Shown here piece by piece: positions 1,226 through 24,363 of a stretch of DNA of 64,000 nt (positions within the stretch are counted from its first letter, which is position 1; each line of letters opens with the position of its first letter). Under the pieces are notes generated by a model. It was not told the DNA's origin. It ran no database searches and saw only the letters and a program-made list of their open reading frames with translations. The DNA is taken from the IMG/VR virus record IMGVR_UViG_3300042898_002099. One strand, given 5' to 3'. The translations under genes were made by a program, and so were the position numbers. This stretch comes from a virus.

Positions 1226-1584
1226 TACTTAACACCTTTATATAATTTTACAGAATCTTCTACTAATGATCTGTTTGTTCTGATTGCATTATCGACCATT
1301 AAATTAACTGCTTGCACATAACGAGGTCTTTTAACTTTAAAGCAAATGTCGCACTTGCGTTTTAAGTCTGCAATTTCCTCATCTGATTTTGCAGCTTGAA
1401 TTGCATCTTCCAACATCCACATACGGATATGAATAATTGCGAGTTTTTCAATAACTTCGCCTAGGTTATCTGTTTCAATATATTCAGAGTCAGGAAGATC
1501 TCCCTTTGCTAATACATCATGAACAGTTTGTTTAATAATTTGTTCTATGCTCTCACCTAAATTTGTCATCAATTTTCTCCACAA
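1225..1584 (-). CDS. DUF4254-like helical protein (probable start MTNLGE)
   Basis: TDNLGEVIEKLAIIHIRMWMLED pattern typical of DUF4254-like proteins in glycosylation clusters. Confidence 0.5.
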   Translation of the reverse strand: MWRKLMTNLGESIEQIIKQTVHDVLAKGDLPDSEYIETDNLGEVIEKLAIIHIRMWMLEDAIQAAKSDEEIADLKRKCDICFKVKRPRYVQAVNLMVDNAIRTNRSLVEDSVKLYKGVK

Positions 1585-2749: not shown

Positions 2750-3654
2750 TCAATAGTTTGTTTTAAGCCCTTATCAAAAGTAACTTTAGCTTTCCAGCCG
2801 AGGTCTTTTAGCTTAGTGTTATCCATTTTGCGTCTTGGTGTGCCGTTTGGTTTATCTTTGTTCCAAACAATTTTACCTGTGAAACCCATTTCTTTTTTGA
2901 GCTTATTAACGAGATCTTTAATTGTAAGTTCTTCGTCACTACCAACATTAACAAATTCTGCTTTATCATAATTTTGCATCAACCAAAAACAAGCATCTGC
3001 TAGATCATCTACATATAAAAATTCTCTAGTTGGTGTACCATCACCCCAGCACTCTATGCTATTATCCCCTGTCTTCATAGCATTATGCATCTTGGTAATA
3101 ATACCAGGAATTACGTGACCATGTTCTGGAATAAAATTATCATTAGGCCCATATAAATTTGCAGGCATACAACTAATAGCATTAAAGCCATATTGACGTC
3201 TGTAATACTCACACATTCTTAAACCTGTAATCTTAGCTAATGCATAACCTTCATTAGTTGGTTCAAGCGGTGCTGTTAATAAGTATTCTTCTTTAATTGG
3301 TTGAGGTGTTACCTTAGGGTAAATACAGGCTGAGCCCAAGAACAATAGTTTCTGACAACCATTTCTATATGCAGAATCAATTACATTAGTTTGAATCTGT
3401 AAGTTGTCATAGATAAACTCACCGGGATTTGTCCAGTTCCAGTTAATGCCACCAACTTTAGCTGCTGCTAAGAAAACAAAGTCTGGTCTTTCTGTACTAA
3501 AGAAGTTTTTAACTGCTCGTTGGTCTCGTAAATCTAATTCGCCCTTTGATCTAAGAATTAAATTAGTATAACCTTCTTCTTTTAATTTTCTTACTATTGC
3601 TGATCCAACTAATCCTCTGTGACCAGCAACAAATATTTTGCTATTCTTTTCCAT
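2719..3654 (-). CDS. fcl: GDP-L-fucose synthase / GDP-colitose synthase (Fcl/WcaG/ColC)
   Basis: VAGHRGLVGSA, LAAAKVGGI, FLGSACIYP, YALAK, PANLYGPNDNF, WGDGTPTREFLYVDD. Confidence 0.93.
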   Translation of the reverse strand: MEKNSKIFVAGHRGLVGSAIVRKLKEEGYTNLILRSKGELDLRDQRAVKNFFSTERPDFVFLAAAKVGGINWNWTNPGEFIYDNLQIQTNVIDSAYRNGCQKLLFLGSACIYPKVTPQPIKEEYLLTAPLEPTNEGYALAKITGLRMCEYYRRQYGFNAISCMPANLYGPNDNFIPEHGHVIPGIITKMHNAMKTGDNSIECWGDGTPTREFLYVDDLADACFWLMQNYDKAEFVNVGSDEELTIKDLVNKLKKEMGFTGKIVWNKDKPNGTPRRKMDNTKLKDLGWKAKVTFDKGLKQTIDWYKKEKGLV

Positions 3655-3662
3655 TTTTATTC

Positions 3663-4322
3663 CTATCTTAAAGTAAACACATAATCGTGAAGGGATAATT
3701 TTTCAGTAAATTTATGAGTATTATCTACAACATCAATTATCTTTTGTATATCATCGTGCCATTCAACTAAAAGAACTTTCGGTAGATATTTTTCTATGGA
3801 AAAGCCTTTAAGGACTTCCAATTCATATCCTTCTACGTCTAATGAAAAAAAGTCTACTGTTGCTACATTTAATGATTCTAATATTGAATCTAGTGTTCGT
3901 GTAGGAACAACAAATTCATATCTAATTTCCTCTTCATTTAAAGCAGAGGCTTTTGCTGTCCAATTTTCATTTTTCCATATAGGAGAAGATTTTACAGAAG
4001 TCATTAATCCTGGATCGTCAGAATAAACCCGACGATGCGTCATAGTAATTTCCTTTGCGAGATTTCCGTGAGAAATTAAAGCAGAATTAAATACTTTAGA
4101 GTTGGGTCTATTATCGCGACACACCTCAAATGCTTCGGGGTTAGGTTCTACTAAAATACCTGTCCAACCTAGTTCTTCTTCGAGGTGCCATGTATTGCTT
4201 TGAGTAAAACCGTCAGCGCCGCCCACTTCAATAAAGAATCCATTTCTATAATTTAAATATTTTTCAACAACTTTGCGATTTACATCTTGGTATGAAGGAG
4301 GAAACATATTATCCTCAAGCAA
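3663..4322 (-). CDS. FkbM-family SAM-dependent methyltransferase
   Basis: [41 protein letters not shown]. Confidence 0.88.
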
Positions 4323-5328
4323 AATTAATGCACATATCTTCTACAAGAGCATCAAAAGAATGCTTAGGTGTCCAGCCGAGTACACTCTTGGCCTTTGACG
4401 AGTCACCCAATAATGTTTCTACTTCTGCAGGGCGGAAATATTTTTCATCTACGCGAACAATAATTTTTCCTGTATGCTCATTAATACCTACTTCATTAAG
4501 TCCTTCGCCTTCCCAGCGAATTTTTAATGCAAAATAAGGCGCGCATCTTTCAACAAATTCTTTAACTGAATATTGTTCACCTGTAGAAATAACAAAATCG
4601 TCAGGGGTATCTTGTTGCAACATTAACCACATTGCTTCAACATAGTCTTTAGCGTGACCCCAATCTCGTTTAGCATTCAAATTGCCTAGATATAAACACT
4701 CTTGGTTACCTGAGCTAATTGACTCTAAACCATTTACAATTTTCTTAGTTACAAAGTTGTGTCCACGACGAGGAGACTCGTGATTAAATAGAATGCCAGA
4801 GCAAGCAAACATATTATATGATTCACGATAGTTCTTAACTATCCAATATGCGTAGAGCTTAGCTACACCATACGGTGATCTAGGATAAAAGGGAGTTGTT
4901 TCTTTTTGCGGAATCTCTTGCACTAAACCATATAGTTCAGAAGTAGATGCTTGATAAATTTTACAGGTCTTTTCCATGTTAAGCAATCTAACAGCTTCAA
5001 GAATACGCAATGTACCTAAGCCATCAACCATAGCAGTATACTCAGGAGTTTCAAAAGAAACCTTAACGTGACTTTGAGCTGCAAGATTGTAGATTTCACA
5101 TGGATTGTGTTTCTTCAATACGTTCATAACAGACAAAGAATCTGTTACATCGCCATAATGAAGATGCAGATCTGGATTGTTGTAGATATGGTCAATGCGA
5201 CCTGTATTGATTGACGAGCTGCGACGGATAATACCGTGAACTTCGTAACCTTTAGACAATAAAAGTTCTGCTAGATAAGAACCGTCTTGTCCAGTAATGC
5301 CTGTAATAAGGGCTACTTTTTTACTCAT
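4315..5328 (-). CDS. gmd: GDP-mannose 4,6-dehydratase
   Basis: [59 protein letters not shown]. Confidence 0.97.
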
Positions 5329-5329
5329 A

Positions 5330-6169
5330 TTATAATCTCCTAAATAATATATCTTCTTTATAATTCAATATCTTATCAATATTGTTTACGGCGGAATTCC
5401 ACTCGCCTACTTTAAAATATTTATCGTCTGCGATATCCGCTATAAAAACATTAAGTTGTTCTTTTAACATTAAAGGATTCAAACTATGTTCTATGAATAG
5501 ATTGGTACAATAAAAGTTCTTTAAATTTTTAGAACAAAATGCAGATGAAATAGCAAAACTGCCAGCTCCAGATGTTGCTAGGTTTTTTGCCTTTAACATA
5601 AAGGAATATGCATCTTGAACAGATAAAAATCTAACATCAATACTATCACCTAATGTCTGATACAAACAAGGCACTATAGGATTTATATTATCTTCAGCTA
5701 GAAAAATTACTTTACCATGAAACAAGTTGTATAATTCCAAATAATATAGTAATGGATTTTGAGTATGTGAGTTAGGAAAATGGGTATACAAATCCCCGCT
5801 TCTTATATGTACGACACATACATCATCTAACGATTCTATTATTTCATCATGATCAATTTTTAAATTTGGTAGAATATATTTTTCACATATTTCTTTTCGT
5901 TTAAAATTTAAATCGGTTATATCTACATCGAAATCTTTATCAGGTCCCTCAAAAAAATAAAACCAATTGTGAGATGATTCGTTTATTTTAAATTCATTGT
6001 CCCCAAATGTCAATTCAATAGCATTAATAAATGGATGATCTGGTGACGTAAATTTTACTTTATTCTTTTCACAGAAATATATTCCATTAGAAATTTGCTG
6101 AATATTATTACCAAGCCGCCCAAACCACCTTGGGATAAATGTGTCGTGTACTATTTCGTTAGTGTGCAT
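5330..6169 (-). CDS. GT11-like (alpha-1,2-fucosyl/colitosyl) glycosyltransferase
   Basis: [10 protein letters not shown]-terminal motif and [11 protein letters not shown]-sugar binding motif. Confidence 0.65.
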
Positions 6170-6219: not shown

Positions 6220-7404
6220 TTAGAATGGAATTTCGTCATCCACTTTGTTTACAGTTGGTTGTTCTTCAACGACAACTTCTGGTGTACTCATTTTAACATA
6301 CAAATCCATGAATGCAGTCTTTGTGTCATCGTCAAACCTATTGATACAATAAGTAATTGCGTCTTCTCTGCTATTAAAGATTGAATATGCTTGAACAATG
6401 TTTACCAAACGACGTGTACTGATAATCTCATCCACACCACCTTCTTCAAAGGTTTTACGAATAACTTCTGCCCAGCTAATCAATTTGTCCGCAAATTCCG
6501 TATCGACTTTGCCAAAGAATTCCATCTTATTAGCAATGATCTTTTTCTCAATCGCCGGTGACGGAAATTCTTGTTCTACAGTAATTGGGAATCGCTCAAG
6601 AAAAGCATCATCCAAAATCTGAGCTGCAATAAAACGACCGTCTTCTGTGCCTCGACCTTTAGTGTTGGCAGTTGCTACGATAGTGAAACCTTTTTCAGCA
6701 TAGATCATTTCACCTGTCTTTTTATTGAAATAAGGTTTGCCTTCTAGGATACTCTGCAGGCACATTAATTTATTTGAACCACGATCAATTTCGTCAATCA
6801 AAAGTACTGCACCTCGACGCATAGCCATTAGAACAGGACCTTCACGATAAATTACATTACCATCTTGCAATGTATTACCACCAATAAGATCATCCTCATC
6901 TGTTTCAATACTGATATTGACCCTGATACATTCACGACCTAATTTAGCCGCAGCTTGTTCTACCATTGTGGTCTTACCATTGCCTGATAGACCAGTAACA
7001 AAAACAGGATAAAATGTCTTGGATTTTAAGATCATTTCCAATTGTTTGTAAAAACCAAAAGGAACATACGTGTTATCTTTTGCGGGAATAGTACTATCAA
7101 TTTCTACAGCAATTCGTTTCTTCATAGGAATAATTTGTGCTTGTAATGCTGGGAAAACATCTTCAGATTGCATAGTCTCAACTTTTGTAGTTTCAAACAT
7201 TTGTGACAAGTCATATTGACTTTTGCCAATTTTAATTTCTCGGCATGCAACAATAAAGTGCGGATTAGGCAATTTATTAGTTTCACAATAAGAAAGAATT
7301 TGTTCTTTAGTTACAACTTTGCCGAATTCGGCAATCAATTTAGCAACCAATTCTTTGCGCTGTTCTTCAGAATAATGAGATTTAGACATGATATAAAGTT
7401 CCAA
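6220..7404 (-). CDS. MoxR/CobS-like AAA+ ATPase
   Basis: Walker A GLSGNGKT, Walker B LLIDEIDR, ATANTKGRG, LDDAFLERF, ISTRRLV. Confidence 0.9.
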   Translation of the reverse strand: MELYIMSKSHYSEEQRKELVAKLIAEFGKVVTKEQILSYCETNKLPNPHFIVACREIKIGKSQYDLSQMFETTKVETMQSEDVFPALQAQIIPMKKRIAVEIDSTIPAKDNTYVPFGFYKQLEMILKSKTFYPVFVTGLSGNGKTTMVEQAAAKLGRECIRVNISIETDEDDLIGGNTLQDGNVIYREGPVLMAMRRGAVLLIDEIDRGSNKLMCLQSILEGKPYFNKKTGEMIYAEKGFTIVATANTKGRGTEDGRFIAAQILDDAFLERFPITVEQEFPSPAIEKKIIANKMEFFGKVDTEFADKLISWAEVIRKTFEEGGVDEIISTRRLVNIVQAYSIFNSREDAITYCINRFDDDTKTAFMDLYVKMSTPEVVVEEQPTVNKVDDEIPF

Positions 7405-10076: not shown

Positions 10077-10670
10077 TTATTTCCAGCGTGGGCCGTGTAC
10101 CCAACCTACGAGTGCTTTACGTTGGCCTTTGGTAATGTGTTTTACATCATGTAATGTGTATGAGGGAAAGAAAGCAATAGTCCCTTTTGTTTGCGGAATA
10201 GCAAACGGAGTCTGCGATGTGTGCAAACGAGTTTCGCCACCTTCGTATTCTGATGGGTCGGTTAATTGCAATGAAAAACTTAATTTTCTTGGGTACTGAC
10301 CTGGACCTTGATAATGATGATCTACGTGTGCGTCATAGAAATCACCTTCATTGTAAACTGAATACTGAAGACCTTCGATGTTATGTAATTCAAACCCAAA
10401 CCATTTTTCATTTGCGGCTAGTACAACGTCTGTCAATTTTCTATATAACCAAGCATTTTCCTCGTTACCGGGAATCCATGCAATTTTTGTACTGCGAATA
10501 GTAGGATCTACTCTACCTTGTTCACCTGGACCTCCGCCGACATATGCCTGATCCAATCCCGCTTTTTCGCCAGCTGCAATAATGCCATTTATCATATCCT
10601 CATCAAATACGCCGTCATAATAACAAAACGCATTTACTGTATGTGTTGTTAGTTGCCATCCTAGTGTCAT
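10077..10670 (-). CDS. 2OG-Fe(II) oxygenase (prolyl-4-hydroxylase-like)
   Basis: YDAHVD (HxD), RKLSFSLQL, YEGG, FPSYTLHDV, G.RKALVGW. Confidence 0.9.
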   Translation of the reverse strand: MTLGWQLTTHTVNAFCYYDGVFDEDMINGIIAAGEKAGLDQAYVGGGPGEQGRVDPTIRSTKIAWIPGNEENAWLYRKLTDVVLAANEKWFGFELHNIEGLQYSVYNEGDFYDAHVDHHYQGPGQYPRKLSFSLQLTDPSEYEGGETRLHTSQTPFAIPQTKGTIAFFPSYTLHDVKHITKGQRKALVGWVHGPRWK

Positions 10671-14740: not shown

Positions 14741-14749
14741 TCTTTATTA

Positions 14750-15439
14750 TTATTTCCTGTCACCAAACAGTTGCAATAGGTTAATAAACAAGTTAATGAA
14801 GTCCATGTATAAAGTTAATGCTCCACGCACCTCTGCGCTATCGCTAGTTTCTATACTAAGTTCTTCACGAATCTTTTGTGTGTCGTATGCTGTTAGTCCC
14901 AAAAATATAATAATTGCCAATGCGCTAATAACCATTTGCATTACAGTGCTACCGATAAAAATATTGACTATACTAGCAATAATGATAGCAATTAATCCAA
15001 CAAACATAAATTTGCCAAGACTATCTAGACTTTGTTTAGTAAAGTAACCATAGCCACTCATAACACCGAATAGGATTGCTGCACCCATAAAAGCACTGAC
15101 AATACTACCCATAGTAAACACAGCAAAGATCATTGCAAAGCTCAATCCCATTAATGCCGCAAAACCATGTAGACATAACTGGGCTACACCTTTGCTAGGA
15201 TTTCTACCTAACACATAGCTAACACCAAAGATCGCTACCAGAGGTGAAAAGATTACAATCCACTTTAGTATACCCGTAAAAAAGAATTGTAGTAACTCTG
15301 GGTTAGTGCCCACAAAATAACTAATAAACATTGATACCATAACAGCAAGACTCATATGTCCGTAGACACGGCCCATTGCTGAGTTAATTTCACTTGCAGA
15401 ACGATATGTCATTCCGCCTGTATAGTTTGTTCCAAACAT
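14750..15439 (-). CDS. Bax inhibitor-1/YccA family membrane protein
   Basis: About 7 TM helices; FLGLTAYDTQKIR and GALTLYMDFINLF signatures. Confidence 0.92.
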   Translation of the reverse strand: MFGTNYTGGMTYRSASEINSAMGRVYGHMSLAVMVSMFISYFVGTNPELLQFFFTGILKWIVIFSPLVAIFGVSYVLGRNPSKGVAQLCLHGFAALMGLSFAMIFAVFTMGSIVSAFMGAAILFGVMSGYGYFTKQSLDSLGKFMFVGLIAIIIASIVNIFIGSTVMQMVISALAIIIFLGLTAYDTQKIREELSIETSDSAEVRGALTLYMDFINLFINLLQLFGDRK

Positions 15440-16044: not shown

Positions 16045-16521
16045 TTATTCAAATTCGTTATCTTCTCTGTGACCGACTCTCATTGCCATGTTTGCATCTG
16101 TTTCTCGTACTTCAACCTTACTGCACCAGACTCGTTCTGCTTCGGCTTTGCCATACATTGGGAGAAAGATAGTATTAATATACTCATAAAGAAAATCAGA
16201 AATCCCCTCACAACCTGTCTTCTCCACTTCTGTAATTTTTGCTAATTTTAATCTGCCTAATTCAAGCAAATGTTCTCGCATAGGATCATCCTGTGCGACT
16301 AATAGAGTATGGTCAAACCAATCCTCTAATTTTTCTTTTAATGGTTTAAGTCCACCAAAATCCATACACCAATTACGAGCATCCAATGTGTCACATTCAA
16401 ATTCAAAATGAAATGATAGTGCATATCCATGAACTAGATTACAATGACTATCAGCTCTCCATTGTCTGTATGCTACGGGACCTATTTGTTTATATGTTTT
16501 TGTTGAGATATATTTTGCCAT
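16045..16521 (-). CDS. queD: 6-carboxy-5,6,7,8-tetrahydropterin synthase
   Basis: SHCNLVHGY (CxxxHG), MDFGGLK, FDHTLL, GCE, VEVRET. Confidence 0.9.
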   Translation of the reverse strand: MAKYISTKTYKQIGPVAYRQWRADSHCNLVHGYALSFHFEFECDTLDARNWCMDFGGLKPLKEKLEDWFDHTLLVAQDDPMREHLLELGRLKLAKITEVEKTGCEGISDFLYEYINTIFLPMYGKAEAERVWCSKVEVRETDANMAMRVGHREDNEFE

Positions 16522-16590
16522 CTCTTGCCTCTCTGAGTAAGTTTGATGGCATGCAGAATATTTAGAGAGGGGTGAATGCCGGAGACCTCT
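16522..16590 (-). ncRNA. candidate cis-regulatory RNA (pseudoknot, riboswitch-like) in the queD leader
   Basis: AGAGG-UCUCCGGCAUUCACC-CCUCU-CUAAAUAUUCUGC-AUGCC; P1 AGAGG/CCUCU, P2 GGCAU/AUGCC; CCUCUCU can alternatively pair with RBS-region AGAGAGG. Confidence 0.4.
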
Positions 16591-17641
16591 TTGTCATTTT
16601 CTGAAAAGCCCTAGAATCATACCAATCGAATAAATCTTCGATAATTTTATCTAAGTTACATTCCGGCTTCCAAGAAGTTTCAGATTGTAATTTTTCAGAA
16701 TTTGCAATTAATATTGCAGGATCACCATTACGGCGAGGTGCAACATTGAAAACAATGCCGTTGTTAATTCTTTCTTGATCTATTAAAAAGGTTTCTGTTT
16801 TAACAAATACTTCAAGATTAGAATATCCTTTGACTGAACCTATATTATATATGCCTTTGATATTATTCTCAATAGCTAAGATGTGTGCTTTGGCAATATC
16901 CGTGACATGAATATAATCTCTGATACAGGTTTTATCTTTTGTCGGATAATCTATACCATACATTGTAAATGGTTCATCGTTTAGCGCTGCTTCAAAAATT
17001 TTAGCAAAAATATGAGTAGCATTTGGTTCTTGACCGTGTGTGCCACCTTCAACCGCACCGCAAGCATTGAAATATCTAAATGATACATACTGCAAACCAT
17101 ATGCCTTATTGTGCCAATTAAGCATCATCTCAGTCATTAGTTTGGATTCACCATATGGCGATATTGGATTAGTATCTGATTTTTCAAATAGCATATGACT
17201 TTTTTCAGGGTCGCCATACACCGAAGCACTGCTACTAAAAATGAATTTTGTACCTGGAGAATATTTGGTAATATATTCCAAATACTTTGCAGTTTTAGCA
17301 ACATTATTTTCATAATATTCTATTGGGTCAGACATGCTTGGGCCAACCAAACTAGTACCAGCACAATGAATAATTGCATCAGGTATATTATCAGCTATAC
17401 AGTTTAATGATTTAGTATCAATAAAATCGCATTGAATGAATTCATCATAGTATGATTCTAAGTGAGAACTAACCCGCCTGTCGACACCAACTACTCTATA
17501 GCCTTGTTTCTTAAGTTCAATACAAATAGCGCCACCGATATAACCGGCGGCACCTGTGACTATAACTGTTTTAATATTTTGCTGCTGGGACATGATCTCT
17601 GTAATCCTTACCACCTCGCCACCAATGTGATCCTTCGGCAT
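16562..17641 (-). CDS. galE: UDP-glucose 4-epimerase (probable start near 17593)
   Basis: VTGAAGYIG, IHCAGTSLVGPS, FSSSASVYG, SPYGESK (YxxxK), RYFNACGA, CIRDYIHV. Confidence 0.9.
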   Translation of the reverse strand: MPKDHIGGEVVRITEIMSQQQNIKTVIVTGAAGYIGGAICIELKKQGYRVVGVDRRVSSHLESYYDEFIQCDFIDTKSLNCIADNIPDAIIHCAGTSLVGPSMSDPIEYYENNVAKTAKYLEYITKYSPGTKFIFSSSASVYGDPEKSHMLFEKSDTNPISPYGESKLMTEMMLNWHNKAYGLQYVSFRYFNACGAVEGGTHGQEPNATHIFAKIFEAALNDEPFTMYGIDYPTKDKTCIRDYIHVTDIAKAHILAIENNIKGIYNIGSVKGYSNLEVFVKTETFLIDQERINNGIVFNVAPRRNGDPAILIANSEKLQSETSWKPECNLDKIIEDLFDWYDSRAFQKMTKRSPAFTPL

Positions 17642-18749
17642 TGAACATAATATCTATACAACGATCAATAGTATTAGATGTCCAAGTAGCTAATTTGCCT
17701 AGATTGGCTCGCTCTTGAAACAATAAACTATTTAGTTTAAACACTGCATCATCTTGTGACCATGGAATGTAAAGACATTCACGATCATTGGCAAATGTTT
17801 CAGGGAATGATCTATACGCAGGGTACAAACAATTTGTACCTAGTGCATCTGCTTCTGATGCCGTATTACTTACCCAATCTTGTAATGCACAATTAAATAA
17901 TACTCGGGAATCACCTAACAACTCATAGTATTCATTCTTTTTAAGATTCTCATAGATTTTAAAATTATGAGTCTTTTCCAATGCTCGCGCGCGATCCAAA
18001 TACTTTTGATTGTTACTACGTAAAGGACCGCCTGATAAAACAGCAAATTCTACAGCAGGATTAAGTGTATGGTATCTTTCAATTAGATCCATAAAGAAAT
18101 CAGGTTGTTTTTCTTGATCGAATCTTGCCGCAAACACTACACGAAGTTTGCGCTCATTAAAAGGAATCTGTTTCACTACACGACTGCGAACTTCATCTTT
18201 GTCAAATGCCAAACCAGAGATATTAAAGATTGGTGCTTCCCAACCTGCAATTTTCATATGAGCAACCATCTCTTCGTTAGATGCAAGTACACCTGTAACA
18301 AATTGGTCTGTCATTTTCTCATATAGACCCATCCACTTCTGCATATCCCATACGTGAACGAAATCATCTGGATCAATAGATTGTGCAAGGCAACGAACAA
18401 ATATTCGAGGCTGATACTCATAACTTACTTGATCCATAATATAAGGCAATGCCTCAATACCAGGAGTAAACATATCTTCAAAAAAGATTGTATCTTCGTA
18501 TGTAATTTCACCAGCTTTCATCTTCTTAATAAGATTAGCCATCTGTGTCAGCGAATAATAACTACGACCGTGTGCATCAAGCACTTGTCCTGTTACAATT
18601 GCTTTAGAGTCATCTAAAATATCACCATGAATTACTTCATAATCAATACCTCGGCGCTTAAATGCTGCCTCACTCCAATGCTGAAGCTGCAAGGTATAAC
18701 GACCTTCATACGGCTCCAAACCCATATAATATAATTTTCCCATTATCAA
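17571..18749 (-). CDS. GT-B fold glycosyltransferase (GT4-like)
   Basis: VVFAARFDQEKQPDFF, YYELLGDSRVLFNCALQD...EADALG..LYP...FPE. Confidence 0.75.
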   Translation of the reverse strand: MIMGKLYYMGLEPYEGRYTLQLQHWSEAAFKRRGIDYEVIHGDILDDSKAIVTGQVLDAHGRSYYSLTQMANLIKKMKAGEITYEDTIFFEDMFTPGIEALPYIMDQVSYEYQPRIFVRCLAQSIDPDDFVHVWDMQKWMGLYEKMTDQFVTGVLASNEEMVAHMKIAGWEAPIFNISGLAFDKDEVRSRVVKQIPFNERKLRVVFAARFDQEKQPDFFMDLIERYHTLNPAVEFAVLSGGPLRSNNQKYLDRARALEKTHNFKIYENLKKNEYYELLGDSRVLFNCALQDWVSNTASEADALGTNCLYPAYRSFPETFANDRECLYIPWSQDDAVFKLNSLLFQERANLGKLATWTSNTIDRCIDIMFNAEGSHWWRGGKDYRDHVPAAKY

Positions 18750-19144
18750 TCCCTAGTAAAATACATTCTGCAACCGTTTTCGCCATCTTCTGAGACTTCG
18801 ATTACATAATCTCGATCAGGCCACTGAGCAATTAATTTTGCGTGTAAATCTTTAGCAATCATCTCACAAGATTTGTGATTCAATTGCAATGTGTCTTCAT
18901 TATACCAGCGTTCAATAGTACGCTTTGCTTGTATAAATTCAACATCCCTATCATCATGAAACACTTCCATCTCAACACGGAAATGAAAAATGTGTCTATG
19001 CAAGTCTGCAAGGAAAGACACATCTAGCCAATGATCATCTGGTTTACCAAAACGCTTTGTTGCTAATTTCGGATCCGTTGCCGCTGCTGGGTAACGATGA
19101 ATACCTTCCTTCTGAAAGGTAACAAAAATAAAACTCTTGTTCAT
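18746..19144 (-). CDS. QueD-paralogous T-fold protein, DpdL-like
   Basis: EGIH, LADLHRHIFHF (LxxxHRHxF), RDVEFI, SCEMIA, IEVSEDGENG; directly downstream of dpdA. Confidence 0.65.
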   Translation of the reverse strand: MNKSFIFVTFQKEGIHRYPAAATDPKLATKRFGKPDDHWLDVSFLADLHRHIFHFRVEMEVFHDDRDVEFIQAKRTIERWYNEDTLQLNHKSCEMIAKDLHAKLIAQWPDRDYVIEVSEDGENGCRMYFTRD

Positions 19145-20430
19145 GCAAATAAGTCCTCAAGTGTTGATGGGGCTACCTCGCTAACAGGTTCTGAATCCAT
19201 AAACCTGCCAACGTTCTTTTCCCAATAAAGAAAATCATCAGTGTTTTTCACATCGAATAATGTTGAAAATTCGTTCTCACAATTTTTATCTCTGCAGAAT
19301 CTTAAAAATTCTTCTTTAGAATTCATAAGTGTACTAACATCTAATGTGAAGTTATGCACATTAGTTAAGATAAATGCAAGTCTGGCTCTCATAACATCTA
19401 CAAATTTGCCGCCATTTTCAAGATATTCGCCTACAGAAATATTCATTAATTTATGATAATTTTCTGCGGTATATTCTGTGCCACACACAGCATTAATTTC
19501 TGCAACAACTGTTCTATAGATATTTGAAAATGGTCTTCCCATTTTTACAGATGAGCCACCATAATCACCGGGATTCTTTTTCTTGCTATGTGAAAAATAA
19601 AACAATCCATTATCTAAAGACATAGAATGTGTTGTCGAATCATATGAAATATCAATGCCATCATATAAGCCAGTTTGACTAAACAACAAATATGGCAAGA
19701 TACGTTTTAATGCACCTACACCCAATACGTGTAGATGAAATGGTCTTTCAAATGGTACAGCATTAACAAAGAATGCTCGCTTAACATCTTCAAGTGGTCC
19801 CATACCTAGAGCAGCTGATCCCATAGCTACACCACCAATACGATGATGTAATTCTTTTGGAATCTCATCAAGCATTGCCTCGCCCCATAACTTATAAGTT
19901 TCTTGACCTGAACCTTGAATAATAACAAACGGTCTGCAAGAACTTTTCATATCATCAAATCTTTGAATTTGTTCTAATACATTTTTACCAGTTTGTCTAG
20001 CATAACTTTCAAAATTTTCCATGTCAACATATCTACGCTTAGTATCAATTTTAGATGACACACCAGATGCAGATGTAGACTTAACCGGAATCTCATCAAA
20101 TGCCATTCCTATGTCTGCGTATGTTGCTTGATTCTCAAACACCTTATTACGAGTCTCAGATGTGTTTGGTAAACCTCTAGTAATAATCTGCAAACCTCCA
20201 GAGTCGGCATGAATGTTTTTAATTACTGGTCTAAATTTTTGTAATTTTGCACCAAAGTTCTTTTCAGTAAAACCATTATACAATAAAGAAAACTGATGAT
20301 TGTTTTTATTGTGAACAGTTCTGGAAATCATGTCTTTAATCATTTCCAATGTCTCAGGGTCATTACATTGTTCTGCACCCAACCTCAGATAAGCGGGACC
20401 TGATATAACATATTCTAATTGTCTGCTCAT
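19141..20430 (-). CDS. dpdA: TGT-family DNA 7-deazaguanine transglycosylase (DpdA-like)
   Basis: TGT motifs HADSGGLQ, MAFDEIP, IIQG, GGVAMG, HLHVLGVG, SYDSTT; clustered with folE/queD/queE. Confidence 0.82.
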   Translation of the reverse strand: MSRQLEYVISGPAYLRLGAEQCNDPETLEMIKDMISRTVHNKNNHQFSLLYNGFTEKNFGAKLQKFRPVIKNIHADSGGLQIITRGLPNTSETRNKVFENQATYADIGMAFDEIPVKSTSASGVSSKIDTKRRYVDMENFESYARQTGKNVLEQIQRFDDMKSSCRPFVIIQGSGQETYKLWGEAMLDEIPKELHHRIGGVAMGSAALGMGPLEDVKRAFFVNAVPFERPFHLHVLGVGALKRILPYLLFSQTGLYDGIDISYDSTTHSMSLDNGLFYFSHSKKKNPGDYGGSSVKMGRPFSNIYRTVVAEINAVCGTEYTAENYHKLMNISVGEYLENGGKFVDVMRARLAFILTNVHNFTLDVSTLMNSKEEFLRFCRDKNCENEFSTLFDVKNTDDFLYWEKNVGRFMDSEPVSEVAPSTLEDLFA

Positions 20431-21329
20431 AAAAATAAACTTTCTAATGAAGACTTTTGTGTGTCTCCAGCTTTTTCTGTTAAATTAACTGTAATCTGTT
20501 TTAGCTTAGGATTCTTTTGCTTGAACATTCTCATCCAAGTTCCTTTTGCTACTGTATCTTGTTTAGGCAAGTTCCATATCTCTGATATAAATTTTAGACC
20601 AGATGCTGTTCTTTCCCATCTTTGTTCTGCAGTCATTCCGGTTGACCAAGTAGACTTTTCGGGAGTTGCTTGTTCTTCTTTAAAAATAATGTTATTACAG
20701 ATAAAAACACCTAGACCGTTTTGAATAAATTCAATACCAAAATTTTGATCTTCACACGGAATTAGAGTACCATCCGAATTGACAAACTTCTCATCAAAAT
20801 ATATTTCTTTATTGTGATGTTTCTTAATATTCTTAATAATTAGAATACTTGTTTTTGTCATAAATGTTGGCCTGAATCTCCATCTAATTTTATCACCTTC
20901 AGCGTTTTCTGTCAAGTCCTTTGTGAAAGGCTGATTAGCAGGATTGACAGGTAAAAACATATCTACGTCTGCAAGATTCTCAAATGGAATATTTCTGAAT
21001 GTTTGAACAAAGGTATCATTCGCCCCATACTTTTGACCAGTATAAAGGTATGTGTCGTTGTCAGCAAAAATGGCATAATCCTCATCCGAATTGTAAAATT
21101 CTTTTAAGAGGACATTTCTTGCATCACCTGGAGTTAATACTTTACCTTGGTGTTTGATATATTGAACACCATCTTCGTATTGTTCTTCTTTGTAATTTTG
21201 AGCAAACACTACAGGCTGAAGATCATTTTTCTTAACCCAATCTAATTGCCGTTTGTGTATTTCTGCACGTCTAGCATTTGTGCTATCAGGGCCGAACCAT
21301 GATATAATGTAGCATTTCTCAAACTTCAT
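20427..21329 (-). CDS. GT-A fold glycosyltransferase, possibly DNA-base glycosyltransferase
   Basis: ARNVLL, YAIFADND (DxD), CEDQNFG; ATGA-coupled to dpdA; C-terminal SLESLFL. Confidence 0.62.
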   Translation of the reverse strand: MKFEKCYIISWFGPDSTNARRAEIHKRQLDWVKKNDLQPVVFAQNYKEEQYEDGVQYIKHQGKVLTPGDARNVLLKEFYNSDEDYAIFADNDTYLYTGQKYGANDTFVQTFRNIPFENLADVDMFLPVNPANQPFTKDLTENAEGDKIRWRFRPTFMTKTSILIIKNIKKHHNKEIYFDEKFVNSDGTLIPCEDQNFGIEFIQNGLGVFICNNIIFKEEQATPEKSTWSTGMTAEQRWERTASGLKFISEIWNLPKQDTVAKGTWMRMFKQKNPKLKQITVNLTEKAGDTQKSSLESLFL

Positions 21330-21839
21330 TTACTCACCTAGCATTTTAATCAAGTGTTTTGTCTGATGCATAGCATCGTCAAGAGCATTATGGTAAACGC
21401 CTTCTCGTTCGTCAGCAGGAATCCAATTGAATAATGCCTTTACTGTACGATAACATCTATCATCCCAGCATTTCCATGGTGGTTCTCTGTCTGTAATAAA
21501 GTAGGCATTTGATAAAATTGTATTATCAAAGACAGCACCGTTGCCCCAAACAGGCAAACTCTTAGGACCAAACCATTCCTCAAAATCATCTAATGCTTGA
21601 TTCAAAGGAATGTTATTACGAGTAAGTTCTCGCAAAGCTTCTTTATTTTGCTCCGACCACCATTTGATAGTTTCTTTAGAAACATGCATACCTACATCTT
21701 TGCAGGTTTTAAGATCAATGGTGCAATAGAAGGTATCTAAAATTTCTTTACCTTCAAATTTTACTGCACCAATTGAACAGATAGCGGCATTTGATCTTGT
21801 TGACATTGTCTCCAAGTCAACCATTACATTAACTGTCAT
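21330..21839 (-). CDS. DEDDh 3'-5' exonuclease (DexA/Rv2179c-like)
   Basis: VMVDLETMST, WGNGAVFD, HNALDDA. Confidence 0.85.
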   Translation of the reverse strand: MTVNVMVDLETMSTRSNAAICSIGAVKFEGKEILDTFYCTIDLKTCKDVGMHVSKETIKWWSEQNKEALRELTRNNIPLNQALDDFEEWFGPKSLPVWGNGAVFDNTILSNAYFITDREPPWKCWDDRCYRTVKALFNWIPADEREGVYHNALDDAMHQTKHLIKMLGE

Positions 21840-22516
21840 TTACATCCTTGTCTTGCAATCTGATAAAATTCATTTCTAACTTCTGGGTGATTTTTAAATC
21901 CGCCACCTAAACGAACTGTTACTGTAGAACTACCTGTATCTTCAACGCCTCTAGATTTGACACAATAGTGTTGTGCATCAATTAATACAGCAACATCTTC
22001 AGTATCAAGAATATATTGTAGTGTGTGGAAAATTTGTTCTGTTAGTCGTTCTTGAATCTGTGGTCGCTTGCTGAAATATTCTACAATACGATTAATTTTA
22101 GATAGACCAAGAACTTTGTTCTTCGGAACATAAGCAACAGTTGCTAAACCATCGATAACAACAAAGTGATGTTCACAATTAGATTGAACATTAACATTGC
22201 GCTCAACAACCATTTCATTATATTTCATTTTGTTGTCAACGGTTGTGCATTTAGGGAATGCATCATAATCGAGTCCCCAAAAGATTTCGTTAACATACAT
22301 TTTAGCAACACGTTTAGGAGTCTCATTTAGACTATCGTCATCTAAGTCGAGACCTAATACCTGCATAATATGTGCAAAGCTTTTTTCAATTTCCGCAATT
22401 TTATCTTTGCGATCCATTGATATTTTAAATGTTGGTGTTTCCACTCCCATTTTAACCAAATGTTCGTGAACTTGTTGTCCCAATAATGGGTCTGTTTTTG
22501 TCTTGTTATATGACAT
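21836..22516 (-). CDS. folE: GTP cyclohydrolase I
   Basis: ETPKRVAKMY, SNCEHHF, GLSKINRIV, RPQIQERLT, HYCVKSRGV. Confidence 0.96.
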   Translation of the reverse strand: MSYNKTKTDPLLGQQVHEHLVKMGVETPTFKISMDRKDKIAEIEKSFAHIMQVLGLDLDDDSLNETPKRVAKMYVNEIFWGLDYDAFPKCTTVDNKMKYNEMVVERNVNVQSNCEHHFVVIDGLATVAYVPKNKVLGLSKINRIVEYFSKRPQIQERLTEQIFHTLQYILDTEDVAVLIDAQHYCVKSRGVEDTGSSTVTVRLGGGFKNHPEVRNEFYQIARQGCK

Positions 22517-22576
22517 TTTGAATCCTTCCTAACTCGGATATGATGATTGAAATTTGTTACCTTTGTGTAACATTAT

Positions 22577-22584
22577 TATTTATA
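22577..22584 (-). promoter_or_regulatory. T4-type late promoter TATAAATA upstream of folE
   Basis: Exact TATAAATA on the minus strand in the queE-folE gap. Confidence 0.7.
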
Positions 22585-23445
22585 TTAAGTGCCCCATGCA
22601 TTTTTAAATAATGGGATTTGTAATCTGTCGGAATATCTCCAACCTTTTTTCATTGCCAATTCTGCAACACTACGATTGTTCAACGAATACATTTCTTCTG
22701 TACCACCACAAGGCATAATATAAACAGCGCCACCGAAACCAGATTTGCGATATTCATTTACTGCTTGTTCTGCTTCTTCAGCATCTTCTTTAGTTGCAAC
22801 TACAAATTTAAGATATGTATTACCTAACAATTGATATTGTTGAACAACTTCTGGTCTGATTGCATCTTCCCATTTTTCACCGCTAATTGATAATTTAGGG
22901 GATACTGAAAATGTTATATTACCATAGTCTCGACCAAACCTTGTCCACTCCTGAAATAAGTATTCATCAAACTCATCAGTTATAAGTTGTGTACCATTAG
23001 TTTCAAAAGTAAGTTCTTTTAGAGCTTGCATCTTAGGATGTTCTAAAAGATCAGGATAAGCTTTTTGCCAACCCAATAAAGGCTCACCGCCTGTAATTAC
23101 AAGATGTTCGTCTCGCCATTCCTTGTACGGTAACGTATCAACAATAGCATCGGCAATCGCATCAGTAGAAAGAACGGGAGACAAATGCTTAAAACGAGGA
23201 TCCCAAGAAGCATAACTATCACAACCCGTAGACACCAAAGGTAACGATTTATATTCTGTATACTTAGAAGGGTCAACATTGTTTGCTTCATTGCTAAGTT
23301 CTCCTTTAGGCATACCAAAACCTGCACATTTAAAGTTACAACCAAATGTTCTTAAAAACACTGAGGGTACGCCCATATAGCGACCTTCACCCTGTATGCT
23401 ATAAAATAATTCTGCAATCTTAATTTTGCTCATATTCACTTTCAA
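22585..23445 (-). CDS. queE: 7-carboxy-7-deazaguanine synthase, radical SAM
   Basis: ELFYSIQGEG, FLRTFGCNFKC...GCDS, VITGGEPLL, FETNGT, SVSPKL. Confidence 0.92.
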   Translation of the reverse strand: MKVNMSKIKIAELFYSIQGEGRYMGVPSVFLRTFGCNFKCAGFGMPKGELSNEANNVDPSKYTEYKSLPLVSTGCDSYASWDPRFKHLSPVLSTDAIADAIVDTLPYKEWRDEHLVITGGEPLLGWQKAYPDLLEHPKMQALKELTFETNGTQLITDEFDEYLFQEWTRFGRDYGNITFSVSPKLSISGEKWEDAIRPEVVQQYQLLGNTYLKFVVATKEDAEEAEQAVNEYRKSGFGGAVYIMPCGGTEEMYSLNNRSVAELAMKKGWRYSDRLQIPLFKNAWGT

Positions 23446-23710
23446 AAATAGTAGACCATTTCTTTAGTTTTTCAATTTTAGCCAATTTAGCAACACGCAA
23501 ATGTTCTAAGTCAACTACACCCATACCGCATAAAATATCTATCATAGCCAGCATGTCACCGAGCTCTTCTTCTAGATGTTCTCTATTTGTTTTGGGTTTG
23601 TTGGGTTTAAAATTGTCAATACCAAAGCGTTCGCATTTGCTAACTGCTTGTATAACTTCAGCACATTCTTCTTGCAGAATGTTAAAGACTTCTTTGATTT
23701 TTGTATTCAT
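23420..23710 (-). CDS. MazG-like NTP pyrophosphohydrolase
   Basis: LQEECAEVIQA...LEEELGDML. Confidence 0.75.
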   Translation of the reverse strand: MNTKIKEVFNILQEECAEVIQAVSKCERFGIDNFKPNKPKTNREHLEEELGDMLAMIDILCGMGVVDLEHLRVAKLAKIEKLKKWSTIFESEYEQN

Positions 23711-23715: not shown

Positions 23716-23744
23716 ATTATATGACATTTAGTCAGTAATGTCAA
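23716..23744 (-). promoter_or_regulatory. consensus sigma70-type promoter, probably giving a leaderless mazG-queE transcript
   Basis: TTGACA-ttactgactaaatgtca(17 nt)-TATAAT-tcgtt-ATG. Confidence 0.82.
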
Positions 23745-24363
23745 TTATGGGATTATCCTTTTCAGACGCTTTCTTTTTACGAGCTTTTGTCTCGGATGCC
23801 GTTTCTCGTTTTTCGGGATCGATTGTGTCTAATTGCTTTTTCAAATAATCAATCAAATGGCGGCCTGCTTCCGAATCTTCTGCATTTTGAATAATAGAAT
23901 CAATATCCATATTCTCCATGAGTTTATATTTCGTTGCCTGTTGTTTCTTTTCCTTTTGAATTCTGCGAATAAAGGCAAAGTAAATAATTTGAGTATAATA
24001 GGCAAATGGATTAGATGATTTTGTGGGATCAAATTTTGCAACAGCAGTTAGGCAATTTTCAATGCCATCCGAAACCATATCATCTCTAAATGTGTAATTG
24101 ATAAAATTAGATTTATATGATAAATGTGTTGCAATTTTAATAAAGCATTCGCCTATATATCGAGGTACTCGAGTCGGTTCCTCTCCTGCAGCTTTGGCTT
24201 TGTCTAATGCCTCTTTATATTCTATAAGAGCAGCAAGAAACTGTTTGTTGTTTACATAATGGGCAGGGGCCTTGGCGGGGATTTCTTCTTTAATGAAGGA
24301 TTCTTCTATTTCCTCGATCAATTCTAATATCTCGCTCTCCGGCGTCGTCGTTGTTTTCGTCAT
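23728..24363 (-). CDS. gp55: late transcription sigma factor
   Basis: HYVNNKQF, YIGECFIKIATHLS, FINYTFRDDMVSDGIENC, NPFAYYTQIIYFAFIRRIQKEKKQ. Confidence 0.95.
   Translation of the reverse strand: MTKTTTTPESEILELIEEIEESFIKEEIPAKAPAHYVNNKQFLAALIEYKEALDKAKAAGEEPTRVPRYIGECFIKIATHLSYKSNFINYTFRDDMVSDGIENCLTAVAKFDPTKSSNPFAYYTQIIYFAFIRRIQKEKKQQATKYKLMENMDIDSIIQNAEDSEAGRHLIDYLKKQLDTIDPEKRETASETKARKKKASEKDNPIIDITD

What the first reader, a model, noticed from the sequence alone, without database searches (positions are those of the whole stretch)
16045..23710. 7-deazaguanine DNA-modification island with no QueC, interleaved with two glycosyltransferases and GalE: candidate glycosylated deazaguanine base
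Seen: one tightly packed minus-strand run of mazG-like, queE, folE, exonuclease, GT-A, dpdA(TGT), DpdL-like, GT-B, galE, queD, with several overlapping or abutting genes. No queC, queF or gat-queC is in the window. Known: FolE, QueD and QueE make 7-carboxy-7-deazaguanine (CDG); QueC is needed for preQ0; DpdA exchanges guanine in DNA for deazaguanines. The phage derivatives I know of (dPreQ0, dPreQ1, dG+, dADG, dDG, dCDG, methyl/formyl-preQ1) carry no sugar. Inference: the two glycosyltransferases flank dpdA/dpdL and a UDP-sugar epimerase sits inside the operon, suggesting a CDG-derived base that is further mono- or di-glycosylated (e.g. Gal/GalNAc). This would be a purine analogue of T4 glucosyl-hmC, presumably for anti-restriction.
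Basis: partly seen in the sequence, partly recalled or inferred. Interest (0 to 1): 0.92.

Follow-up and report, generated by a model that had tools for sequence, protein, structure and literature searches.

The report
Sugar transferases inside deazaguanine DNA operon
An uncultured T4-like phage carries the genes that replace guanine in its DNA with 7-deazaguanine, joined to a sugar epimerase and two sugar-transferring enzymes, one of which ends in the DNA polymerase's sliding-clamp docking tail, so its DNA probably holds a sugar-bearing purine that I found described in no paper.

Summary
Window 16045-23710 (minus strand) is one packed run behind a perfect sigma-70 promoter: mazG, queE, folE, exonuclease, GT-A, dpdA, dpdL, GT-B, galE, queD. 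QueC, QueF and ThyA-type hydroxymethylases are absent from the 119-kb contig, and QueC and ThyA also from four complete relatives.

- **GT-B is tied to the pathway.** In 160 IMG/VR loci (32-65% GC) its family lay within 2.5 kb of dpdL in 150, with dpdA in 140, GalE in 130 and QueC in none. All five hits among 50,697 phage records lie beside dpdA.
- **Docking tail.** DpdA and the GT-A end in the motif that ends this phage's own polymerase and T4 gp43/gp55. GT-B and DpdL never carry it.
- **Swapped cassette.** Close kin carry a tail-bearing GT4-like enzyme in the GT-A's slot.
- **Position.** The island occupies T4's a-gt slot.
- **DpdA type.** It is DpdA2-type, not phiST's DpdA3.

Best reading (about 0.55): DpdL makes 7-deazaguanine, a clamp-tethered DpdA inserts it, and the base carries Gal/GalNAc-type sugar(s). 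The attachment site is unknown and nothing here is chemical evidence. This scan already reported the same module in at least 33 other genomes. PA5oct, ACP17, BUCT-ZZ01 and BUDD are cultured test cases.

The parts
23716..23744 (-). sigma-70-type promoter (TTGACA, 17 nt, TATAAT; 12 of 12) at the head of the island
   Evidence: It lies between the end of gene 55 (23728) and the mazG start (23710). It is a consensus match only; function was not tested.
23420..23710 (-). MazG-like nucleoside triphosphate pyrophosphohydrolase (96 aa)
   Evidence: PF03819 at 29.6 bits and phrog_4856 at E 4e-23. Present in only 19 of 160 related loci, so probably an accessory.
22585..23445 (-). QueE, 7-carboxy-7-deazaguanine (CDG) synthase, radical SAM; likely ATG at 23433
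   Evidence: phrog_2076 at E 2e-55, plus TIGR03963/TIGR03365 hits below their cut-offs
21836..22516 (-). FolE, GTP cyclohydrolase I
   Evidence: PF01227 at E 2e-61; NF006824 at 324 bits against a cut-off of 202
21330..21839 (-). Rv2179c-like DEDD 3'-5' exonuclease (169 aa); probably not part of the core module
   Evidence: PF16473 at E 3e-47. Present in 48 of 160 loci, all of the T4-like arrangement.
20427..21329 (-). GT-A-fold glycosyltransferase (300 aa) with DxD (D90-N-D92) and a C-terminal clamp-docking tail; a lineage-specific cassette
   Evidence: AlphaFold model pLDDT 89. Every listed Foldseek PDB hit is a GT-A glycosyltransferase (6yv7 at E 4e-8, then TarP, LH3, TarS). Invariant residues come from alignment A1. 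Window 20454-21329 has no DNA match in kin that carry a GT4-like gene at this position.
20430..20453 (-). C-terminal tail SSLESLFL of the GT-A (predicted gp45 clamp-docking motif)
   Evidence: Compare the phage's own PolB tail ATLEGLFG, T4 gp43 ASLDFLFG and T4 gp55 SLDFLY. The strict motif is in 5 of 5 GT-A homologues against 3 of 2698 background ORFs.
19141..20430 (-). DpdA, DNA guanine transglycosylase of the DpdA2 type (429 aa) with a clamp-docking tail
   Evidence: hhalign against Vibrio phage nt-1 DpdA2: probability 100, E 2e-53, 407 columns. Against phiST DpdA3: probability 26. The PDB profile search hits only TGTs, with the DSGG and FDE motifs aligned. phrog_10773 at E 9e-93.
19144..19167 (-). 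C-terminal tail STLEDLFA of DpdA (predicted gp45 clamp-docking motif)
   Evidence: 60 of 140 DpdA homologues carry the strict motif. The tail co-varies with the polymerase tail in ACP17 and in L011.
18746..19144 (-). DpdL, QueD-like T-fold protein, proposed CDG decarboxylase (132 aa)
   Evidence: The motif LADLHRHIF matches LxxxHRHxF of Cui et al. 2023. 54% identical to ACP17 DpdL. H16, H49, H51 and E69 are invariant in alignment A7.
17571..18749 (-). GT-B, a GT4-like retaining-type glycosyltransferase (392 aa; likely ATG at 18743); the conserved partner of DpdL
   Evidence: PF00534 at 29.5 bits. Model pLDDT 93.5. VIA Z 24-27 to the GT4 enzymes SPS, BshA, MshA, SenB and BH4 glucosyltransferase. 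R209 and K214 are invariant and E299 nearly so. Co-occurrence.
16562..17641 (-). GalE, UDP-hexose 4-epimerase (likely ATG at 17593)
   Evidence: TIGR01179 at 290.6 bits against a cut-off of 262.3. S124, Y149 and K153 (E. coli numbering) are conserved, and the gatekeeper Y299 aligns with Leu. Present in 130 of 160 related loci.
16045..16521 (-). QueD, 6-carboxytetrahydropterin synthase
   Evidence: PF01242 at E 3e-15; phrog_2389 at E 2e-41. 70% identical to ACP17 QueD.
23728..24363 (-). gene 55-like late sigma factor (upstream boundary of the slot)
   Evidence: tblastn with T4 gp55 at E 5e-22; PF04542
10680..13480 (-). gp46/gp47-like recombination nuclease genes (downstream boundary; in T4, a-gt lies between genes 55 and 47)
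   Evidence: ORFs of 571 and 362 aa. Their counterparts in L003 and L004 carry SMC_N/AAA_23 and Metallophos. T4 gene order.

Best explanation
The island is an early-expressed DNA hypermodification module.

1. FolE, QueD and QueE turn GTP into 7-carboxy-7-deazaguanine (CDG). These are established family functions.
2. DpdL removes the carboxyl group to give 7-deazaguanine. This was proposed for phage phiST and has not been shown biochemically.
3. A DpdA2-type transglycosylase docks on the gp45 sliding clamp through a polymerase-like C-terminal tail. It exchanges guanine in newly replicated DNA for the deazaguanine. This step is inferred.
4. GT-B is a GT4-like enzyme found only together with dpdL. 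It uses a UDP-sugar supplied by the co-encoded GalE (UDP-Gal or UDP-GalNAc) to put a sugar on the deazaguanine.
   - I think this happens slightly more probably on the free base before insertion than on DNA.
   - The reasons are that GT-B has no clamp tail, its acceptor domain is acidic, and its nearest structures act on small molecules.
5. The clamp-tailed GT-A then adds a further sugar on the DNA. Close relatives carry a GT4-like enzyme in its place, so sugar patterns would differ between strains, as they do among T-even phages.

The attachment atom is unknown. I favour the position-7 side in the major groove, by inference only. The likely benefit is evasion of restriction and other DNA-targeting defences; that too is inferred.
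For: - **Gene identities:**
- **No competing pathway:** QueC and ThyA are absent from the contig and from four complete relatives; QueF and ThyX are absent from the contig.
- **GT-B is specific to the module.**
  - All 5 tblastn hits among 50,697 phage records lie beside dpdA.
  - In 160 IMG/VR loci spanning 32-65% GC, dpdL lies within 2.5 kb of GT-B in 150. dpdA is present in 140, GalE in 130 and QueC in none.
  - HMM labelling adds PA5oct, Phosso and BCSR5.
- **The dependence runs one way.** DpdL occurs without GT-B (phiST, whose DNA holds dDG by mass spectrometry), but I never saw GT-B without DpdL.
- **Clamp tail.**
  - Tails: own PolB ATLEGLFG, DpdA STLEDLFA, GT-A SSLESLFL, T4 gp43 ASLDFLFG, T4 gp55 SLDFLY.
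  - Strict-motif counts: GT-A 5/5, GT4-like second transferase 37/44, DpdA 60/140, GT-B 0/158, DpdL 0/149, background ORFs 3/2698.
  - The tails co-vary within phages: ACP17 polymerase SLDDLFE with DpdA TLDELFE; L011 polymerase ...DFF with DpdA ...IFF and GT-A ...YFF.
- **Cassette swap** between identical flanks.
- **Position:** the island lies between genes 55 and 47, where T4 has a-gt.
- **Promoter:** a perfect sigma-70 consensus upstream of mazG.
- **Published context:**
  - ACP17 dpdL plus dpdA alone gave no dDG in E. coli, and the authors suspected missing enzymes. The GT-B gene lies between those two genes.
  - PA5oct carries the module, and its DNA resists enzymes that cut at G-containing sites. 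The base has not been identified.
Against: - No chemical datum shows a sugar on any deazaguanine.
- 7-deazaguanine has no hydroxyl or amine side chain at position 7, so an ordinary O- or N-glycosylation site is not obvious.
- The function of DpdL is itself only predicted.
- GT-B fold matches tie across many GT4 enzymes and say nothing about the acceptor.
- GT-A relatives also sit on short contigs without deazaguanine genes.
- Only 60 of 140 DpdA homologues carry the strict tail.
- Clamp binding was not tested.
- The window holds a second sugar-nucleotide cluster, so the phage may glycosylate other things too.
- The QueC HMM used on the 160 loci had only two seed sequences.
Confidence: 0.55

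Rival explanations
1. The DNA carries plain 7-deazaguanine (dDG) as in phiST. The transferases and GalE glycosylate something else: another DNA position, a phage or host protein, or a cell-envelope glycan.
For: - DG lacks an obvious glycosylation handle.
- The phiST-type system makes dDG with no transferase.
- GT-A relatives occur away from deazaguanine genes.
- The window has a further GDP-sugar cluster.
Against: - GT-B was never seen away from dpdL, across hosts of 32-65% GC and several phage architectures.
- GalE moves with the module.
- No ThyA-type hydroxymethylase exists to make an hmC or hmU acceptor.
- The clamp tail on the second transferase argues for DNA as its workplace.
Confidence: 0.17
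2. GT-B acts only on a free small molecule: DG, CDG or a pterin intermediate. It makes a glycoside that is a transient intermediate, a solubilised or carrier form, or a by-product. The base that ends up in DNA carries no sugar from GT-B.
For: - GT-B has no clamp tail (0 of 158).
- Its N-terminal acceptor domain is acidic (pI 4.8, net charge -11).
- Its closest structures are small-molecule GT4 enzymes, among them tetrahydrobiopterin glucosyltransferase.
- It keeps close to dpdL more constantly than to dpdA.
- ACP17 dpdL plus dpdA failed in E. coli without it.
Against: - A second, clamp-tailed transferase in 49 of 160 loci implies a sugar acceptor on DNA.
- A dedicated GalE is costly for a by-product.
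- TGT-family enzymes can take bulky 7-substituents such as queuine (my own knowledge), so insertion of a glycosylated base is feasible.
Confidence: 0.15
3. The modification is made before replication. The deazaguanine base is converted to a nucleotide (by the phosphoribosyltransferase seen in many related loci), reduced, phosphorylated and incorporated by the polymerase. MazG removes dGTP. DpdA plays a minor or repair-like role.
For: - A small PF00156 phosphoribosyltransferase sits in 58 of 160 related loci, in BUCT-ZZ01 and in PA5oct.
- MazG is in this island.
Against: - This window has no such phosphoribosyltransferase.
- DpdA is present in 140 of 160 loci and carries a clamp tail.
- nt-1 DpdA2 inserts preQ0 into DNA in E. 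coli.
- The phosphoribosyltransferase could equally salvage the guanine that DpdA releases.
Confidence: 0.05

Closest known systems
DpdL-type 7-deazaguanine (dDG) system of Cellulophaga phage phiST (Cui, Hutinet et al., NAR 2023, PMC10516641)
   Same: FolE, QueD, QueE, DpdL with the LxxxHRHxF signature, a MazG-like gene, a DpdA-family enzyme, and no QueC.
   Different: - phiST uses a 259-aa DpdA3 with no clamp tail.
- phiST has no glycosyltransferase and no GalE.
- Here DpdA is a 429-aa DpdA2-type enzyme, and GT-B, GalE and a second transferase are built into the operon.
DpdA2 of Vibrio phage nt-1 (inserts preQ0 into DNA in E. coli; same paper)
   Same: Full-length homology: hhalign probability 100, E 2e-53. 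Both phages are T4-like.
   Different: - nt-1 encodes QueC beside DpdA2 and has low-level dPreQ0 and dG+.
- Its DpdA2 ends without the clamp motif.
- It has no DpdL and no GT-B.
T4 alpha- and beta-glucosyltransferases acting on hydroxymethylcytosine DNA
   Same: - A phage-encoded UDP-sugar transferase linked to a non-canonical base.
- The same genomic slot between genes 55 and 47.
- Transferases that are exchanged between close relatives.
   Different: - No significant sequence similarity.
- No gp42-type hydroxymethylase.
- The modified base is a purine analogue inserted by base exchange.
- T4 a-gt and b-gt end without the clamp motif.
Acidovorax phage ACP17, Pseudomonas phage PA5oct, Synechococcus phage BUCT-ZZ01, Xanthomonas phages BUDD and X1 (cultured carriers of the same module)
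   Same: dpdA, GT-B and dpdL lie together with FolE and QueE. ACP17 and BUCT-ZZ01 have no Pfam QueC match; BUDD has only a sub-threshold 19-bit match far from the cluster; PA5oct was not searched.
   Different: - None of them has the GT-A.
- BUCT-ZZ01 has the GT4-like second transferase.
- PA5oct has only a truncated epimerase.
- Their DNA bases have not been identified chemically. PA5oct DNA resists enzymes that cut at G-containing sites.

Membership tests
DpdL-type dDG pathway (phiST type) | FolE, QueD and QueE present for CDG synthesis | tested here: met
DpdL-type dDG pathway (phiST type) | DpdL with LxxxHRHxF in place of QueD's CxxxHGH | tested here: met
   LADLHRHIF in the 132-aa ORF; motif conserved in alignment A7
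DpdL-type dDG pathway (phiST type) | no QueC or QueF | tested here: met
   for the contig. QueC is also absent from the complete relatives BUCT-ZZ01, ACP17, G002 and G003. The contig itself is only about 69% complete.
DpdL-type dDG pathway (phiST type) | DpdA3-subfamily transglycosylase | tested here: not met
   hhalign probability 26 against phiST DpdA3, but 100 against nt-1 DpdA2
DpdL-type dDG pathway (phiST type) | dDG as the base found in virion DNA | not testable with these tools
   needs nucleoside mass spectrometry
DpdA2 DNA transglycosylase | full-length homology to nt-1 DpdA2 and the TGT catalytic motifs | tested here: met
   E 2e-53 over 407 columns. DSGG (D76) and FDE (D112) align with Z. 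mobilis TGT.
DpdA2 DNA transglycosylase | preQ0 as the inserted substrate | not testable with these tools
   Unlikely here, because no QueC is encoded; needs an assay.
GT4-like retaining GT-B glycosyltransferase | two-Rossmann GT-B fold with the R/K phosphate binders and the glutamate of the EX7E region | tested here: met
   pLDDT 93.5; Z 24-27 over 320-345 residues; R209 and K214 invariant, E299 nearly invariant; PF00534 above the gathering score
GT-A glycosyltransferase | GT-A fold with a DxD metal and nucleotide-sugar motif | tested here: met
   D90 and D92 invariant. No Pfam, NCBIfam or PHROG family matches it.
T4 AGT/BGT DNA glucosyltransferases | sequence homology to a-gt or b-gt | tested here: not met
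   hhalign probabilities 1.7 and 0.8
T4 AGT/BGT DNA glucosyltransferases | a hydroxymethyl-pyrimidine acceptor made by a gp42-like enzyme | tested here: not met
   no PF00303 match in the contig or in complete kin
GalE UDP-hexose 4-epimerase | equivalog score and the Ser/Tyr/Lys catalytic triad | tested here: met
   TIGR01179 at 290.6 against 262.3; S124, Y149 and K153 conserved
gp45 sliding-clamp clients (T4 gp43, gp55 type) | C-terminal (S/T)L(D/E)xLF-type tail like the phage's own polymerase | tested here: met
gp45 sliding-clamp clients (T4 gp43, gp55 type) | physical binding to the clamp | not tested
   The gp45 homologue was found (G000 14745-15401) and aligned (A4), but the complex-prediction service did not complete.

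The most novel reading that the evidence does not exclude
The free 7-deazaguanine made by DpdL is glycosylated at carbon 7 by GT-B before insertion. This would be a C-glycoside, perhaps formed together with the decarboxylation. The clamp-riding DpdA2-type enzyme then inserts this pre-glycosylated base in place of guanine. Exchangeable clamp-riding transferases (the GT-A here) extend it to a disaccharide on DNA. That would be a sugar-bearing purine in DNA, of which I found no report, and a base-level rather than polymer-level route to glycosylated DNA.
Probability: 0.13. Interest if true: 0.95.

Novelty: new variant of a known kind. Interest (0 to 1): 0.8.

Why it matters
- **A new class of DNA base.** The phage DNA sugar modifications I know of sit on pyrimidines (glucosyl- and arabinosyl-hmC, and hmU derivatives). 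The eight 7-deazaguanine DNA derivatives listed by Cui et al. 2023 carry no sugar. A glycosylated deazaguanine would therefore be new, and it would matter for restriction, CRISPR and DNA-glycosylase defences.
- **It is widespread.** GT-B has more than 8000 close metagenomic homologues and 819 clusters at 50% identity.
- **It is present in cultured phages, including Pseudomonas phage PA5oct.** The prediction can be tested now.
- **The clamp tail offers a mechanism** for how a base-exchange enzyme can modify a whole genome. It also explains why DpdA and DpdL alone failed in E. coli: the transferase gene between them, and the phage clamp, were left out.

Tried and rejected
- **Complex prediction.** I tried clamp trimer with the GT-A tail, then GT-B with DpdL. 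The service was unreachable in all eight tries, so there is no result.
- **Megablast of the island against 50,697 phage records.** No match.
- **Homology of GT-B to T4 a-gt or b-gt.** Not significant.
- **DpdL fused to GT-B.** The 'longer' search found only 232-355-aa DpdL-containing proteins and no fusion of about 500 aa. This is weak evidence either way.
- **Supplementary tables of Cui et al.** Not held, so the published subfamily label of ACP17 DpdA could not be read.
- **Literature searches.** Searches for a glycosylated deazaguanine in phage DNA, and for DpdA together with a sliding clamp, found no report.
- **The QueF hit of 17 bits.** Rejected as a T-fold cross-match inside folE.
- **The idea that the transferases serve hmC or hmU.** Rejected for lack of any ThyA-type hydroxymethylase, or of ThyX in the contig.
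- **The exonuclease and MazG as core parts.** Rejected on their frequency in related loci, 48 and 19 of 160.

Full report
**What is there**

The window is bases 19037-83036 of a 119,376-bp linear IMG/VR viral contig that CheckV rates about 69% complete. It is about 35% G+C. The contig is T4-like: it encodes gp23-type capsid neighbours in relatives, UvsW, UvsY, gp55, gp46/47, gp32, a family-B polymerase and a gp45 homologue.

On the minus strand between 23710 and 16045 lie ten genes: mazG, queE, folE, an Rv2179c-like exonuclease, a 300-aa ORF, a 429-aa ORF, a 132-aa ORF, a GT-B glycosyltransferase, galE and queD. Overlaps of 4 nt or abutting ends join exo, the 300-aa ORF, dpdA, dpdL and GT-B. 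A 12-of-12 sigma-70 consensus lies at 23744-23716, just upstream of mazG. This fits early transcription of the run as one unit, but it is only a consensus match.

**The three unnamed genes**

- **The 132-aa protein is DpdL.** It carries LADLHRHIF, the LxxxHRHxF signature that Cui, Hutinet et al. used to separate DpdL from QueD. It is 54% identical to the ACP17 protein that those authors cloned as DpdL.
- **The 429-aa protein is a DpdA.**
  - A profile of it and nine relatives hits only tRNA-guanine transglycosylases in the PDB, with the DSGG and FDE motifs aligned.
  - It aligns over its whole length with DpdA2 of Vibrio phage nt-1: hhalign probability 100, E 2e-53.
  - It barely aligns with the 259-aa DpdA3 of phiST, at probability 26.
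- **The 300-aa protein is a GT-A glycosyltransferase.**
  - It has no Pfam, NCBIfam or PHROG match.
  - Its AlphaFold model (pLDDT 89) is a GT-A fold, and every listed PDB neighbour is a GT-A glycosyltransferase.
  - D90 and D92, a DxD motif, are invariant among 20 homologues.

GT-B models at pLDDT 93.5. It matches GT4-type retaining transferases at Z 24-27. R209 and K214 are invariant and E299 nearly so; these are the donor-site residues.

GalE passes NCBI's equivalog cut-off and keeps the Ser/Tyr/Lys triad. The residue aligned with E. coli Tyr299 is Leu. From my own knowledge of GalE classes, this leaves room for N-acetylated substrates.

**What is missing**

- Pfam QueC finds nothing in the contig.
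- QueF gives only a 17-bit cross-match inside folE.
- ThyA and ThyX find nothing.

Because the contig is incomplete, I searched complete relatives that carry the same module: Synechococcus phage BUCT-ZZ01, Acidovorax phage ACP17, and two IMG/VR genomes rated 100% complete (222 and 190 kb). None has QueC or a ThyA-type enzyme. So the pathway stops at CDG or DG, and no hydroxymethyl-pyrimidine is available as a conventional sugar acceptor.

**Are the transferases part of the pathway?**

For GT-B the answer is clear.
- It has more than 8000 close metagenomic homologues and 819 clusters at 50% identity.
- Among 50,697 phage records tblastn finds only BUCT-ZZ01, BUDD, X1 and two ACP17 records. Each hit lies beside the dpdA homologue.
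- I took 160 IMG/VR loci in two scans: 60-100% and about 31-42% identity, 32-65% G+C, contigs up to 385 kb. I labelled them with HMMs built here.
  - dpdL lies within 2.5 kb of GT-B in 150 loci, and within 100 nt in 71.
  - dpdA is present in 140, GalE in 130, a small phosphoribosyltransferase in 58, and QueC in none.
  - The 10 loci without a labelled dpdL include contig-edge cases and L130/L132, which have an unlabelled ORF in that position.
- The same HMMs find GT-B next to dpdL in the jumbo phages PA5oct and Phosso, and 2.7 kb from dpdL, beside the dpdA-like gene, in BCSR5.
- The dependence runs one way. DpdL occurs without GT-B in phiST, where mass spectrometry showed dDG, and in RHph_I1_18, D479, Ahp1 and others. 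I never saw GT-B without DpdL. This is what one expects if GT-B acts on the product of DpdL.

For the GT-A the link is looser.
- It has only 21 homologous clusters.
- Homologues at 30-54% identity sit inside other deazaguanine clusters (L009, L010/L011, the P0125 contig, L130/L132).
- Three others lie on 5-8-kb contigs that show no deazaguanine gene.

**The clamp tail**

- The phage's own polymerase ends in ATLEGLFG, DpdA in STLEDLFA and the GT-A in SSLESLFL.
- T4 gp43 ends in ASLDFLFG and T4 gp55 in SLDFLYEAND. From established T4 biology (my knowledge), these are the tails that dock on the gp45 clamp.
- A strict pattern picks out only DpdA and the GT-A among the contig's ORFs of 60 aa or more. 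The polymerase tail was seen by eye.
- Across the 160 loci the strict motif ends 5 of 5 GT-A homologues, 37 of 44 copies of the GT4-like second transferase and 60 of 140 DpdAs. It ends none of 158 GT-B, 149 DpdL or any other cluster protein, and 3 of 2698 background ORFs.
- The tails co-vary with the polymerase inside a phage. In ACP17 the polymerase ends SLDDLFE and DpdA ends TLDELFE. In L011 the polymerase ends ...DFF, DpdA ...IFF and the GT-A homologue ...YFF.
- nt-1 DpdA2 and phiST DpdA3 lack the tail.
- I found no paper that links DpdA with a sliding clamp.
- Binding itself is untested. The complex-prediction service did not complete.

**A swappable cassette in T4's a-gt slot**

- Relatives with 93% identical GT-B carry a 447-455-aa GT4-like protein between the same exo and dpdA genes. 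It has an EX7E motif and the same tail.
- DNA alignment shows homology on both sides and none across window 20454-21329.
- The island lies between gene 55 and genes 47/46, the place where T4 keeps a-gt.

**Mechanism**

Shown by family membership: FolE, QueD and QueE make CDG, and GalE interconverts UDP-hexose 4-epimers.

Proposed by others and untested: DpdL decarboxylates CDG.

Inferred here:
- DpdA rides the clamp and exchanges G for the deazaguanine behind the fork.
- GT-B puts a Gal/GalNAc-type sugar on the deazaguanine.
- The clamp-tailed second transferase adds to it on DNA.

I lean slightly to GT-B acting on the free base. It has no tail. Its acceptor domain has pI 4.8. Its nearest structures act on small molecules, among them a pterin glucosyltransferase. 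It stays close to dpdL more constantly than to dpdA. None of these is decisive.

The main weakness is chemical. 7-deazaguanine offers no ordinary hydroxyl or amine at position 7, so the linkage would have to be unusual, or DpdL does something other than proposed.

**Published context**

- Cui et al. report that ACP17 dpdL plus dpdA gave no dDG in E. coli and suggest that other enzymes may be needed. In ACP17 the GT-B gene lies between those two genes.
[quoted passage not shown] PA5oct carries dpdA, GT-B, dpdL, a truncated epimerase, a phosphoribosyltransferase and QueE in a row.

**Earlier notes of this scan**

One search returned 40 findings in at least 33 other genomes that describe the same module, among them the clamp tail and the a-gt slot. 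I reached those points before reading the notes and checked them on this window, so they agree with my reading but do not count as support. This report adds:
- the DpdA2 assignment, where the earlier notes name DpdA3;
- the motif counts;
- the cassette boundaries;
- the mixed contexts of the GT-A family;
- the one-way dependence of GT-B on DpdL.

**Verdict**

This is a new variant of known kinds (Dpd-type deazaguanine systems and phage DNA glycosylation), and it can be tested directly in cultured phages.

Noticed in passing
window 266-6169 (minus strand): A second sugar-nucleotide cluster: DegT-type aminotransferase (1553-2749), SDR epimerase/reductase (2719-3654), FkbM methyltransferase (3663-4322) and GDP-mannose 4,6-dehydratase (4315-5328), plus unassigned ORFs. 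It could supply a deoxy-amino sugar donor, perhaps for the clamp-tailed transferase. A Gmd-like gene also lies downstream in relative L004.
   Followed up: partly
window 14750-15439 (minus strand): A Bax1-I (BI-1/YccA-like) membrane protein (PF01027, E 7e-53) two genes downstream of queD; it is unusual phage cargo.
   Followed up: no
L014 (Stenotrophomonas phage Moby) 4505-8197: An annotated inositol-3-phosphate synthase and a QueC-like gene lie next to a clamp-tailed DpdA (tail SLDDLFG), with no DpdL or GT-B. This may be a different, undescribed deazaguanine derivative.
   Followed up: no
L001 4748-5209; L179 9175-9609; 58 of 160 IMG/VR loci: A small PF00156 phosphoribosyltransferase travels with the module in many lineages but is absent from this window. 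It could salvage the guanine that DpdA releases, or make a deazaguanine nucleotide.
   Followed up: partly
L009 4709-9756: A distant GT-A homologue (30% identity) lies between FolE and a 270-aa QueC-like protein, in a phage that also carries NAD-salvage genes and has no GT-B within reach.
   Followed up: no
L183 7221-8372 (Vibrio phage Bakedbeans); L187 7431-8312 (Chryseobacterium phage MA9V-3); P0292-P0356: DpdL also occurs fused to 110-250 extra residues with no Pfam match, giving proteins of 232-383 aa. The added domain is unidentified.
   Followed up: partly
window 6220-7404 and 10077-10670: A CbbQ/NirQ-like AAA ATPase and a 2OG-Fe(II) oxygenase. Both are conserved in the relatives L003 and L004.
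   Followed up: no
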